Source: Candidatus Omnitrophota bacterium
GTDB lineage: Bacteria; Omnitrophota; Gorgyraeia; Gygaellales; Profunditerraquicolaceae
Direction of reading: 5' to 3'
DNA length: 64,000 nt
Assembly (NCBI GenBank): GCA_040754255.1
Contig: JBFMDA010000001.1
Coordinates: 2,535 to 66,534, forward strand
Shown: piece by piece, positions 40,316-40,868 of the stretch
How positions within the stretch are numbered: position 1 is the first letter of the stretch
How the letters are laid out: every line of letters starts with the position of its first letter
Program-made: the position numbers and the translations under genes
Notes under the pieces: generated by a model
Seen by the model: the letters and a program-made list of their open reading frames with translations, nothing else
Told to the model about the DNA's origin: nothing
Databases searched by the model: none

Positions 40316-40780
40316 ATGGCGAAAAAGAAAAAACCTGCGAAAAAGAAAATACCTGCCTTAAAGAAGAAAGCTCTAAAACGAAAACCAGTTCGTAAATCCC
40401 GCCCTAAGCCTAAATCGAAATCGCGGCCTAAGCCTCAACCTCGGCCTAAGTCTCGACCTAAACCTCGACCTAAGCCTAAGTCTAGATCAAAATTGAAGGG
40501 GCGTCCTCAGCCTAAACCTAAGCCTAAGAAGTTAGATAAGGATGCGGTCGGCATCATCACCCACTATTTCCCGCACGTGCGCGCAGCAGTCTTTAAAGCT
40601 GAACAGCCCTTAGCCGTAGGGGATATGATAAAGATTAAAGGCCATACTACCGACTTTATGCAAAAGGTGGCCTCTATGCAGATAGATAGGACACCTATCA
40701 CCGTTGCCAAAAAAGGCGATGAGATCGGCCTTCAGGTCGAATCCCGCGTCCGCAGGAAAGATATAGTATATAAACTCTAA
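40316..40780 (+). CDS. hyper-basic PK/RPK-repeat protein with C-terminal small beta-rich domain
   Basis: N-terminal 75 aa KKKKPAKKK...RPKPKSKSRPKPQPRPKSRPKPRPKPK, encoded by a 6-nt periodic repeat. C-terminal domain unassigned. Confidence 0.5.
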   Translation: MAKKKKPAKKKIPALKKKALKRKPVRKSRPKPKSKSRPKPQPRPKSRPKPRPKPKSRSKLKGRPQPKPKPKKLDKDAVGIITHYFPHVRAAVFKAEQPLAVGDMIKIKGHTTDFMQKVASMQIDRTPITVAKKGDEIGLQVESRVRRKDIVYKL

Positions 40781-40789
40781 GCAGCTACT

Positions 40790-40868
40790 TGCTGCCTTAG
40801 CCTAAACCTTGACCTTTCTAGGCCTCAACCTAAGCCTAAACCTTAACGAACGAAGCCTAGGCATAATG
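40790..40868. repeat. (CCTAAAC/CCTTGAC/CCTCAAC/CCTAAGC)n heptamer run
   Basis: TTAGCCTAAACCTTGACCTTTCTAGGCCTCAACCTAAGCCTAAACCTTAACG. Confidence 0.75.

What the first reader, a model, noticed from the sequence alone, without database searches (positions are those of the whole stretch)
40316..40868. Hyper-basic (RPKPK)n protein whose coding repeat resembles the CCTAAAC/CCTAAGC intergenic heptamer family immediately downstream
- The N-terminal 75 aa of the 40316..40780 product are almost pure K/P/R/S.
- They are encoded by reiterated CCTAAGCCTAAATCG / CCTCGACCTAAGCCTAAG units (40405-40530).
- The intergenic element 60 nt downstream (40790-40868) is a run of CCTAAAC/CCTTGAC/CCTCAAC/CCTAAGC heptamers, the same sequence vocabulary.
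- This suggests that a repeat array was captured into a reading frame (or the reverse), yielding a histone-H1-like tail.
- Sitting next to the ParA-CBM48 gene, this tail is also a candidate ATPase-stimulating or nucleoid-binding partner.
Basis: seen in the sequence. Interest (0 to 1): 0.5.

Follow-up and report, generated by a model that had tools for sequence, protein, structure and literature searches.

The report
Basic-tailed partner of glycogen-binding ParA
The hyper-basic protein is the conserved downstream neighbour, and probably the partner, of a ParA-type ATPase fused to a glycogen-binding module across the phylum Omnitrophota; its Pro-Lys repeat grew inside the gene by in-frame slippage, and its likeness to the nearby intergenic repeat is most likely a coincidence of vocabulary.

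Summary
The ORF 40316..40780 is real, and its first 77 residues are about +35 in charge. The tail is not peculiar to this genome: 71 distinct Omnitrophota orthologues all start M-[P/A]-x-KKKK and carry 40-85 aa Lys-rich disordered tails ahead of a conserved EF-Tu-domain-2-like beta-barrel. The gene lies directly downstream of a Soj-type ParA fused to CBM48 in 76 of 81 genomes, which is the expected signature of a ParA/MinD partner protein. This clade's own feature is a DNA-level expansion of CCT-AAR (Pro-Lys) dicodons. Sixteen of 17 Pro codons are CCT, against 30% genome-wide. The tract differs from a sister genome by in-frame indels of 3, 30 and 18 nt, and an outgroup holds a single-copy SRPKPK seed. 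The downstream element (40795-40847) has period 6, not 7. It belongs to a dispersed intergenic (CCTNRR)n family, matches other intergenic copies best, shares with them an irregular unit the coding tract lacks, and is absent from this position in all four relatives examined. The vocabulary overlap is real but weak (p=0.15 against synonymous recoding). Capture of this array is not supported; the ParA-partner idea is supported by synteny only. The system appears undescribed.

The parts
39156..40235 (+). Soj-type ParA ATPase (deviant Walker A, KGGCGKTT) fused at its C-terminus to a CBM48/AMPK glycogen-binding module
   Evidence: Pfam AAA_31 3e-53 and AMPK1_CBM 2e-11, both above cut-off. The closest solved structures are ParA 8ray and Soj 1wcv/6iub. 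The fusion is 67-70% identical across Omnitrophota.
40257..40301 (+). (ACGCNAT)x6.4 heptamer array in the spacer between ParA and the partner gene, ending a few nt before the ribosome-binding site
   Evidence: TRF period 7/14, 86-93% matches. It differs by 14 nt (two units) from L001. Related heptamers occupy the same spacer in L100 and L102.
40304..40310 (+). Shine-Dalgarno sequence AAGGAGG, 5 nt before the ATG at 40316
   Evidence: Read directly from the sequence. Identical in L001.
40316..40780 (+). Gene for the 154-aa basic-tail beta-barrel protein, the true full-length ORF. The public annotation calls only 95 aa, starting from TTG at 40493.
   Evidence: The M-x-x-KKKK N-terminus is conserved in 71 orthologues. 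All indels against relatives are in frame.
40316..40546 (+). Region coding for the polycationic disordered tail (aa 1-77: 28 K, 9 R, 17 P, 2 acidic). The first ~10 codons form the conserved KKKK motif.
   Evidence: AlphaFold pLDDT is 52-70 with no secondary structure. Composition, conservation.
40391..40534 (+). In-frame CCT-AAR / CCT-CGR (Pro-Lys / Pro-Arg) repeat tract, length-polymorphic
   Evidence: TRF. CCT supplies 16 of 17 Pro codons against 30% genome-wide, p=6e-8. Indels of 30 and 18 nt against L001. Seed present in L082.
40547..40777 (+). C-terminal beta-barrel domain with an EF-Tu-domain-2-like / U32-peptidase-C-terminal-like fold
   Evidence: pLDDT 84-96. Foldseek hits 4he6 at 1.2e-6 with target TM 0.86, and 4he5 with TM 0.91. 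At least 2069 clusters at 50% identity. No Pfam model matches.
40795..40847 (+). Intergenic (CCTNRR)n hexamer array, one copy of a dispersed intergenic element, lying in the leader of the next gene
   Evidence: Best matches are arrays at 13102-13139 and 19748-19769. Shares an irregular unit with other copies. Replaced or absent in L001, L100, L102 and L082. No significant RNA fold (z=-0.38) and no Rfam match.
40892..41143 (+). Downstream 83-aa predicted membrane protein, whose leader carries the hexamer array (RBS at 40880-40886)
   Evidence: It is 95% identical in L001 but not conserved across the phylum, with tblastn matches in 6 of the 81 locus entries.
41567..41583 (+). Second nearby (CCTNRR)n array, just upstream of an ATTATAAC box and the RBS of the MerR-type gene (41613)
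   Evidence: The position is conserved in L001, L100 and L102, with about 3 to 17 units.
36451..39139 (+). Upstream conserved cluster members: GH57 glycoside hydrolase (36451-38007) and the 191-aa single-pass membrane protein (38564-39139). A PF05635 four-helix-bundle gene is inserted between them on the minus strand.
   Evidence: Synteny porin-GH57-p191-ParA::CBM48-partner in 60-76 of 81 loci. Pfam, NCBIfam.

Best explanation
The gene encodes the conserved partner of an Omnitrophota Soj-type ParA ATPase that is fused to a glycogen-binding CBM48 module. The protein has three parts.
1. A conserved N-terminal M-x-x-KKKK peptide. I infer that it contacts the ATPase dimer and stimulates ATP hydrolysis, as the basic disordered N-termini of ParB, MinE and McdB do.
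2. A variable polycationic linker of 40-85 aa. I infer that it binds a polyanion, most likely nucleoid DNA or RNA.
3. An EF-Tu-domain-2-like beta-barrel of unknown ligand.

In this genus-level clade the linker has been remodelled at the DNA level. A pre-existing SRPKPK-coding seed was amplified by replication slippage in units of 6 to 30 nt. Only in-frame products survive, which gives a homogeneous CCT-AAR/CCT-CGR tract that differs in length between relatives.

The hexamer array downstream is an independent copy of a dispersed intergenic (CCTNRR)n element and lies in the leader of the next gene. Its likeness to the coding tract arises because Pro-Lys encoded with CCT happens to fall within the same CCT-purine-rich vocabulary.

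Shown here: the anatomy, conservation, synteny, codon homogeneity, indels, absence of the array in relatives, and the fold. Inferred: ATPase stimulation, polyanion binding, slippage as the mechanism, and the nature of the cargo.
For: Synteny and operon structure:
- The gene sits directly downstream of ParA::CBM48, on the same strand, in 76 of 81 Omnitrophota loci.
- The median spacer is 56 nt, and 38 of 63 spacers are 150 nt or less.
- In the reverse check, 2 of 2 independent ParA::CBM48 loci carry the gene downstream.

Tail properties:
- 71 distinct orthologues start M-[P/A]-x-K-K-K-K. Their tails are 48% K+R and 2.5% D+E.
- The tail is predicted disordered and the barrel is confident.

Fit to the known class:
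- ParA/MinD partners are known to engage their ATPase through a positively charged, disordered N-terminus (PMC10241942, PMC11407121).
- The ATPase domain is closest to ParA/Soj structures.

Evolution of the repeat:
- CCT supplies 16 of 17 Pro codons in the tail, against 30% genome-wide (p=6e-8).
- In the tails of other Omnitrophota CCT is 27%, which equals background.
- Across relatives the tract grows stepwise: L083 5 Pro, L082 7, L100/L102 12-13, L001 14, window 17.
- Indels against L001 are 3, 30 and 18 nt, all in frame.
- The single-copy seed is present in L082.

The array is independent of the tract:
- Absent at this position in 4 of 4 relatives.
- Closest to other intergenic arrays.
- Shares an irregular unit with those arrays only.
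Against: - There is no biochemical or localisation evidence. The partner role rests on synteny plus a generic basic N-terminus.
- Known partner peptides are short. A +35 tail of 77 aa goes well beyond what ATPase stimulation needs.
- The cargo-binding module (CBM48) is on the ATPase itself, not on the partner, which is the reverse of the McdA/McdB arrangement. The role of the beta-barrel is therefore open.
- The coding expansion and the intergenic (CCTNRR)n arrays are found in the same four-genome clade and in neither outgroup. The tract is also the only coding (CCTNNN)3 site in the window. A common mutational cause is not excluded.
- Shared 8-mers exceed the synonymous-recoding expectation (p=0.0085).
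Confidence: 0.6

Rival explanations
1. Shared origin. A clade-specific process that creates or spreads (CCTNRR)n hexamer arrays also seeded or expanded the tail-coding tract, or copies of the coding repeat seeded the intergenic arrays. On this view the coding tract and the arrays are homologous DNA.
For: - (CCTNNN)3 occurs only in intergenic arrays and in this tract (18 hits against 0.38 expected).
- The hexamer vocabularies overlap. CCTAAG, CCTAAA, CCTCAA, CCTCAG and CCTCGA occur in both, and among the hexamers seen only in the intergenic arrays CCTTAA, CCTTAG and CCTTGA would be in-frame stops (CCTAGG would not).
- Shared 8-mers give p=0.0085 against synonymous recoding.
- Arrays and coding expansion are found in the same four related genomes and are absent from the outgroups L082 and L083.
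- The rare Arg codons CGA and CGG are enriched in the tract, 5 of 9 Arg codons.
Against: - The adjacent array is absent in 4 of 4 relatives that keep the coding repeat.
- The array aligns best with other intergenic arrays (32/38) and shares with them an irregular unit that the tract lacks.
- The best local alignment is not beyond synonymous recoding (p=0.15).
- The outgroup's coding seed, TCT CGG CCT AAG, already accounts for the CCT, CGG and AAG codon choices.
- Other family members have independently evolved repetitive tails, both PK-rich and otherwise (P0268, P0248, L056).
Confidence: 0.15
2. The protein is a stand-alone nucleoid-associated or RNA/ribosome-associated protein: a histone-H1-like tail plus a translation-factor-type beta-barrel. 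It is merely co-transcribed with ParA::CBM48 and does not regulate it.
For: - The tail has extreme charge (+35 in 77 aa) and resembles the Lys/Pro/Ala repeat tails of AlgP, PhaM and PhaF, which bind DNA non-specifically (PMC13052382, PMC9239181).
- The barrel is structurally closest to EF-Tu domain 2 and to the U32 peptidase C-terminal domain.
- The domain family is large, at least 2069 clusters, and includes tail-less and two-domain forms.
Against: Near-universal adjacency to ParA::CBM48, with spacers of 8-15 nt in many genomes, argues for functional coupling. The extreme N-terminus is more conserved than the rest of the tail, which a purely electrostatic DNA binder would not need.
Confidence: 0.15
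3. The ParA::CBM48 plus partner pair positions or regulates an envelope polysaccharide synthesis and export machine, in the manner of BcsQ, rather than cytoplasmic glycogen granules. The basic protein is an accessory of that machine.
For: - The cluster starts with an AlgE-type outer-membrane porin (PF13372, Alginate_exp) and a single-pass membrane protein.
- In 13-16 of 81 loci it is followed by an XrtA/PEP-CTERM-type exopolysaccharide locus with Wza, a chain-length determinant, pepcterm_ATPase and a tyrosine autokinase.
- The ATPase also matches CBP_BcsQ.
Against: The ATPase is closest to Soj/ParA structures rather than MinD or BcsQ. CBM48 and GH57 point to alpha-glucan or glycogen. The exopolysaccharide genes are not conserved neighbours in most loci.
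Confidence: 0.1

Closest known systems
McdB and other ParA/MinD partner proteins (ParB N-terminal peptide, MinE, PomXY)
   Same: Encoded next to the ATPase gene. The N-terminus is positively charged and disordered, and the rest of the protein is a separate module (PMC10241942, PMC11407121).
   Different: No sequence relationship. The tail is far longer and more highly charged. The cargo-binding module (CBM48) is fused to the ATPase rather than to the partner. The partner's globular domain is an EF-Tu-domain-2-like barrel. Neither review consulted lists glycogen or alpha-glucan among known cargos.
Histone-H1-like granule tethers AlgP, PhaF and PhaM
   Same: Lys/Pro/Ala-rich repetitive basic tail attached to a storage-granule function. 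For AlgP the number of repeats varies between clones (Deretic & Konyecsni 1990, cited in PMC13052382). This parallels the 3, 30 and 18-nt indels seen here.
   Different: In those proteins the tail is C-terminal and no ParA takes part. Here the tail is N-terminal and the gene is tied to a ParA. No sequence homology was detected.
C-terminal domain of U32 peptidases (PDB 4he6/4he5) and EF-Tu domain 2
   Same: Same small beta-barrel fold. Foldseek gives E 1.2e-6, target TM 0.86-0.91 and rmsd 1.0-1.5 Angstrom.
   Different: Only about 15-20% identity, and no Pfam model matches. Here the domain stands alone behind a basic tail. The function of the U32 C-terminal domain is itself unknown (my own knowledge).
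Dispersed intergenic short tandem arrays (TAACTGA repeats of Beggiatoaceae, cyanobacteria and Bacteroidetes; STRR heptamers of cyanobacteria)
   Same: Short degenerate direct repeats, abundant in intergenic DNA, mostly a few nt upstream of start codons, function unknown (PMC4679880). This matches the (ACGCNAT)n and (CCTNRR)n arrays of this window.
   Different: Different unit sequences. The element in question has period 6, not 7. Here several unit families coexist, and whole spacers are exchanged between related genomes.
Chlamydial histone-like protein Hc2 (HctB)
   Same: A Lys-rich repetitive basic protein in the PVC superphylum, with strain-dependent repeat number (my own knowledge, not tested here).
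   Different: No detectable homology, no beta-barrel domain, and not linked to a ParA.

Membership tests
ParA/MinD partner proteins (functional class) | Encoded adjacent to, and co-directional with, the cognate ATPase gene | tested here: met
   76 of 81 loci. Median spacer 56 nt. Reverse check 2 of 2.
ParA/MinD partner proteins (functional class) | Positively charged, disordered N-terminus | tested here: met
   M-x-x-KKKK in 71 orthologues, with 48% K+R. pLDDT 52-70 and no secondary structure.
ParA/MinD partner proteins (functional class) | Binds the ATPase dimer and stimulates ATP hydrolysis or release from the matrix | not testable with these tools
   Needs biochemistry, or at least a multimer structure prediction. 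Only single-chain prediction was available.
ParA/MinD partner proteins (functional class) | The remainder of the protein associates with the cargo | tested here: inconclusive
   The beta-barrel fold has no known ligand. The carbohydrate-binding module is on the ATPase instead.
Histone-H1-like / AlgP-type basic repeat proteins | Lys/Pro/Ala-rich low-complexity repeat tail with repeat-number polymorphism | tested here: met
   Composition. In-frame indels of 3, 30 and 18 nt against L001.
Histone-H1-like / AlgP-type basic repeat proteins | Sequence homology to H1, AlgP or Hc families | tested here: not met
   No Pfam or NCBIfam family at threshold. The only hit is a sub-threshold low-complexity match to Trypan_PARP.
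Histone-H1-like / AlgP-type basic repeat proteins | Non-specific DNA binding | not testable with these tools
   Needs a gel-shift assay or in-vivo localisation.
Translation-protein beta-barrel (EF-Tu domain 2 / U32 C-terminal domain) | Six-to-eight-stranded closed barrel superimposable on EF-Tu domain 2 | tested here: met
   Foldseek 4he6 at E 1.2e-6 with TM 0.86. More than 50 EF-Tu or IF2 chains at E<1e-3.
Translation-protein beta-barrel (EF-Tu domain 2 / U32 C-terminal domain) | Match to the sequence models GTP_EFTU_D2 or Peptidase_U32_C | tested here: not met
   No hit even at E of 10 or less, apart from GTP_EFTU_D4 at 0.075. The profile against PDB gives eEFSec domain 2 at only E 0.03.
Dispersed intergenic short-period arrays (for element 40795-40847) | Several dispersed intergenic copies, far more than chance | tested here: met
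   18 hits against 0.38 expected, at six intergenic sites. Homologous copies in L001, L100 and L102.
Dispersed intergenic short-period arrays (for element 40795-40847) | Heptamer period, as the finding states | tested here: not met
   Period 6: autocorrelation 0.58 at lag 6 against 0.35 at lag 7, and TRF period 12.
   The array is absent in 4 of 4 relatives. Its best matches are other arrays. The irregular unit is shared only among intergenic copies.
   Best alignment p=0.15, shared 8-mers p=0.0085, both against synonymous recoding.

The most novel reading that the evidence does not exclude
Omnitrophota carry a phylum-wide, undescribed positioning system for an alpha-glucan (glycogen) cargo. 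A Soj-type ParA is fused directly to a CBM48 glycogen-binding module. Its polycationic, beta-barrel partner is encoded immediately downstream, within a conserved porin-GH57-membrane protein-ParA::CBM48-partner cluster. Here the ATPase, not the partner, carries the cargo-binding domain, and the partner's long basic tail contacts the nucleoid. A secondary and less likely reading is that the clade-specific (CCTNRR)n array process also shaped the coding tail.
Probability: 0.35. Interest if true: 0.7.

Novelty: new variant of a known kind. Interest (0 to 1): 0.42.

Why it matters
ParA/MinD ATPases are the main known means by which bacteria position large cargos. Neither recent review consulted lists glycogen or any polysaccharide among those cargos.

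A ParA fused to a glycogen-binding module, 67-70% identical across a whole uncultivated phylum and always followed by a basic-tailed partner, would be a new cargo class. It would also be a new architecture, with cargo binding on the ATPase, and the hypothesis is directly testable.

The repeat analysis gives a worked example of a disordered basic tail evolving by in-frame slippage. It also shows that a shared 'vocabulary' between coding and intergenic repeats is weak evidence of common origin.

The public annotation truncates this protein to 95-101 aa, which hides the tail from database users.

Tried and rejected
- A metagenome-contig scan with the full protein found 15 loci, none closer than those already in hand. 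No extra alleles of the tract were gained.
- Rfam on the whole window found only a tRNA at 33809-33882.
- RNA folding of 40778-40895 gave z=-0.38, so there is no evidence for a structured RNA or a terminator.
- The promoter and terminator consensus scan of 38000-42000 found nothing at the array, and counts were at or below shuffle expectation.
- Pfam and NCBIfam gave no family for the protein or its barrel, even at E of 10 or less.
- A profile search of solved structures gave only a marginal eEFSec domain-2 match, E 0.03.
- I considered the array as a decayed in-frame C-terminal extension, because frame 0 after the stop reads ...SRPQPKPKP*. I rejected this: only the second half of the array is in that frame (a 1-in-3 chance), the first half holds stops, and the array is homologous to other intergenic copies.
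- I considered CCT bias as a general property of these tails. I rejected this because other Omnitrophota tails use CCT at the background rate of 27%.
- Literature searches for Omnitrophota plus ParA plus glycogen, CBM48 plus ParA, and Omnitrophota plus intergenic repeats found no description of either the system or the arrays.
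Full report
**1. What is at the coordinates**

The window comes from a Candidatus Omnitrophota MAG. The C-terminal 83 aa of the ORF are 100% identical to an NCBI protein named 'translation elongation factor-like protein'. ORF 40316..40780 (+, 154 aa) has an AAGGAGG ribosome-binding site at 40304-40310, 5 nt before the ATG. Its first 77 residues hold 28 K, 9 R, 17 P, 6 S and only 2 acidic residues.

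The public annotation starts the protein at TTG 40493, giving 95 aa (101 aa in a sister genome). That is a start mis-call, for three reasons. Seventy-one distinct orthologues begin M-[P/A]-x-K-K-K-K, as the long ORF does. The ribosome-binding site fits the ATG. All indels against relatives are in frame.

**2. Checking the observation**

The coding tract is repetitive. TRF gives periods 12, 18 and 30 at 40424-40483 and period 6/12 at 40505-40528.

The downstream element is real, but it is an array of hexamers, not heptamers. The array spans 40795-40847 and starts 15 nt after the stop codon.

The shared vocabulary is real:
- (CCTNNN)3 occurs 18 times in the window against 0.38 expected. The hits fall at seven places only: six intergenic arrays (13118, 19731, 22391, 26312 on the minus strand, 40795, 41569) and this one coding tract.
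- The tract's best non-self matches in the 64 kb are hexamer arrays: 22391-22411 (19/21) and 40822-40839 (17/18), each E about 0.01.

The similarity is nevertheless short, and most of it follows from the peptide itself:
- The Smith-Waterman score is 15. This is p=0.001 against dinucleotide shuffles of the array.
- It is p=0.15 against synonymous recodings of the same peptide drawn from genomic codon usage.
- Only the number of shared 8-mers (17 against 6.7) exceeds that null, at p=0.0085.

**3. Where the array comes from**

The array's best matches are other intergenic arrays, not the coding tract: 13102-13139 (32/38, E 7e-6) and 19748-19769 (20/22).

Aligned together, the arrays at 40795 and 13102 in the window, L001 7823 and L102 3794 share an irregular unit that breaks the hexamer register, CCTTGACCTT[A/T]CTnnGCCT. 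The coding tract needs a gap at that point. The array is therefore a copy of a dispersed intergenic element.

Another copy sits upstream of the MerR-type gene (41567-41583). Its position is conserved in three related genomes, with about 3 to 17 units.

The element at 40795 shows no significant RNA structure (z=-0.38), no Rfam match and no consensus terminator or promoter. It lies in the leader of the next gene (ATG 40892).

**4. Where the coding repeat comes from**

Relatives form a series. Percentages are identity of the neighbouring ParA::CBM48 protein to the window's (for four relatives; L083's ParA::CBM48 identity was not measured).

| Genome | ParA::CBM48 identity | Pro in tail | CCT among Pro codons | Array downstream of the gene |
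|---|---|---|---|---|
| window | - | 17 | 16 | hexamer array |
| L001 (GCA_028717045.1) | 97% | 14 | 12 | none; unrelated heptamers |
| L102 | 90% | 13 | 10 | none |
| L100 | 89% | 12 | 9 | none |
| L082 | 75% | 7 | 3 | none; 22-nt spacer |
| L083 | not measured | 5 | 2 | none |

- In the window CCT supplies 16 of 17 tail Pro codons against 30% genome-wide (p=6e-8). In the tails of about 50 other Omnitrophota CCT is 27%, which equals background. The homogeneity is therefore a clade-specific, DNA-level amplification and not a tail-wide codon preference.
- L082 has, at the homologous place, a single 'tct cgg cct aag cca aaa' (SRPKPK) with mixed Pro codons. This seed already contains the CCT, CGG and AAG choices that dominate the expanded tract.
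- Window and L001 differ in the tail by indels of 3, 30 and 18 nt, all in frame, while the barrel-coding part is about 97% identical.
- The spacer after the stop codon is replaced wholesale between the two genomes: (CATAGAC)n plus (TACTCTA)n heptamers in L001.

The coding repeat is thus older than, and independent of, the array now next to it. In-place slippage from a coding seed is the better-supported origin.

One caveat remains. Intergenic (CCTNRR)n arrays and the coding expansion occur in the same four-genome clade and in neither outgroup. A common clade-specific mutational cause is not excluded, and I give it about 0.15.

**5. What the protein is**

The basic tail is a family property. 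It has a median length of 55 aa (mostly 40-85), with 48% K+R and 2.5% D+E across 71 orthologues. Other members have independently evolved repetitive flavours: (KKKPVA)n in L056, (RRVLKHKKAV)n in P0248, and a PKKPKKPKRPKKPKK stretch in P0268.

AlphaFold2 on a 23-sequence alignment predicts a disordered tail (pLDDT 52-70) and a confident beta-barrel (pLDDT 84-96). Foldseek places the barrel with the C-terminal domain of a U32 peptidase (4he6 and 4he5, target TM 0.86-0.91) and with EF-Tu domain 2. No Pfam or NCBIfam model covers it. The domain family has at least 2069 clusters at 50% identity.

**6. Context and likely function**

In 76 of 81 Omnitrophota genome loci the gene lies directly downstream of, and co-directional with, a ParA ATPase fused to a CBM48/AMPK glycogen-binding module. 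This sits within a conserved cluster: AlgE-type porin, GH57, a 191-aa membrane protein, ParA::CBM48, then this gene.

- The spacer between the ParA stop and the partner start has a median of 56 nt, and many are 8-15 nt.
- Two of two ParA::CBM48 loci picked independently carry the gene downstream.
- The fusion protein is 67-70% identical across the phylum and is annotated only as 'AAA family ATPase' or 'chromosome partitioning protein'.
- Its ATPase domain is closest to the ParA/Soj structures 8ray, 1wcv and 6iub.

Partner proteins of ParA/MinD ATPases characteristically use a positively charged, disordered N-terminus to engage their ATPase (PMC10241942; PMC11407121).

I therefore read the protein as the partner of ParA::CBM48, in three inferred parts:
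- The conserved KKKK N-terminus is the ATPase-interacting peptide.
- The variable polycationic linker is a polyanion (DNA or RNA) binder that tolerates slippage.
- The barrel has an unknown ligand.

The cargo is probably an alpha-glucan structure, given CBM48 and GH57. An envelope-polysaccharide role is a live alternative, because the cluster starts with a porin and an XrtA/PEP-CTERM-type exopolysaccharide locus follows it in some genomes. None of this has been shown biochemically.

**7. Comparison with what is known, and novelty**

Functionally the protein resembles McdB-type partners and the H1-like granule tethers AlgP, PhaF and PhaM. The latter include a precedent for repeat-number variation (PMC13052382, PMC9239181). 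It is not a sequence member of any of these families.

The intergenic arrays resemble the TAACTGA/STRR class of dispersed short repeats upstream of start codons (PMC4679880).

I found no description of a ParA::CBM48 system or of Omnitrophota intergenic arrays. Neither review consulted lists glycogen among ParA cargos.

**8. Verdict**

- The capture interpretation is not supported.
- The ParA-partner suggestion is supported by comparative evidence only.
- I rate the whole as a new variant of a known kind, of moderate interest. That interest rests on the conserved ParA::CBM48-partner pair rather than on the repeat resemblance.

Noticed in passing
window 12935-12971, 19529-19572, 22293-22343, 26494-26525, 32207-32295, 34097-34215, 36417-36445, 38011-38047, 38473-38509, 40257-40301, 45011-45041, 45858-45910, 46023-46059: Most intergenic spacers carry degenerate period-7 arrays of the ACGCNAT family. 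Sense-oriented arrays end in ACGAAAA a few nt before the RBS or start codon. Reverse-oriented (GCGTATN)n arrays begin right after stop codons. Other unit families also occur: ATAGACC at 14772 and 43946, TCTAAAC at 33636, CTCCGAG at 44815. Similar heptamers appear sporadically in other Omnitrophota loci. They resemble the TAACTGA/STRR arrays of Beggiatoaceae and cyanobacteria (PMC4679880). Function unknown.
   Followed up: partly
window 12935-13139, 19529-19768, 22293-22412: Composite spacers with a fixed order: a (GCGTANN)n heptamer array, then a long GGT-rich/ACC-rich imperfect hairpin (for example 19600-19700), then a (CCTNRR)n hexamer array just before the next gene. This looks like a modular intergenic element.
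   Followed up: no
window 40781-40891 versus L001 6307-6409; also window 36288-36444, 38008-38507 and 41124-41204 versus L001: Between two genomes about 88-94% identical in DNA, whole spacers from stop codon to RBS are replaced by unrelated repeat arrays, while the flanking genes stay collinear. Intergenic DNA turns over like cassettes.
   Followed up: partly
window 38058-38507 (-), flanked by 38011-38047 and 38473-38509; L001 1967-2323 (+): A PF05635 four-helix-bundle gene ('23S rRNA intervening sequence protein', bAvd-like) sits between GH57 and p191 in the window, but between the porin and GH57, in the opposite orientation, in L001. It is therefore mobile. In the window it is bracketed by inverted heptamer arrays. 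The listed ORF's N-terminal extension (MSYRVLRIAYCV...) is just a translated array.
   Followed up: partly
window 33638-33777 (next to the tRNA at 33809-33882); L001 3912-4051: A 140-nt element made of (TCTAAAC)n and inverted (GTTTAGA)n arms is 86% identical to a copy at a different spacer in L001, the spacer where the window has the four-helix-bundle gene. It looks like a small mobile inverted-repeat element.
   Followed up: no
window 41567-41583; L001 7823-7871; L100 2985-3005; L102 3794-3907: The hexamer array upstream of the MerR-type gene keeps its position in four genomes but has about 3 to 17 units. It is followed by a conserved ATTATAA(T/C) box and AGGAGG, so unit number could change promoter or leader geometry.
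   Followed up: partly
window 34913-40780 and 81 related loci: A five-gene cluster is conserved across Omnitrophota: AlgE-type porin, GH57, 191-aa single-pass membrane protein, ParA::CBM48 and the basic-tail barrel protein. It tolerates insertions of toxin-antitoxin, AbiEii, Y1 transposase or small membrane-protein genes between its members.
   Followed up: partly
window 41613-45853: Downstream lies an XrtA/PEP-CTERM-type exopolysaccharide locus: a MerR-type regulator, a Wza-like exporter, pepcterm_ChnLen, pepcterm_ATPase and a tyrosine autokinase. It neighbours the cluster in only 13-16 of 81 loci.
   Followed up: partly
window 40493 (TTG); proteins P0001 and P0002: The public annotation starts this gene at an internal TTG, giving 95 and 101 aa and cutting off the conserved basic tail. 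The same may affect other members of the family, for example the 77-92 aa entries.
   Followed up: yes
L001 6831-7511; L102 2853-3533: An HTH plus Fic gene pair is inserted downstream of the small membrane-protein gene in L001 and L102. It is absent at the corresponding place in the window (41124-41204).
   Followed up: no
proteins P0241, P0252, P0263: Distant members of the barrel family carry two tandem copies of the domain. One (P0263) appears to have a TIR-like N-terminal region, judged by eye from the sequence and not tested. The domain is therefore reused in other architectures.
   Followed up: no
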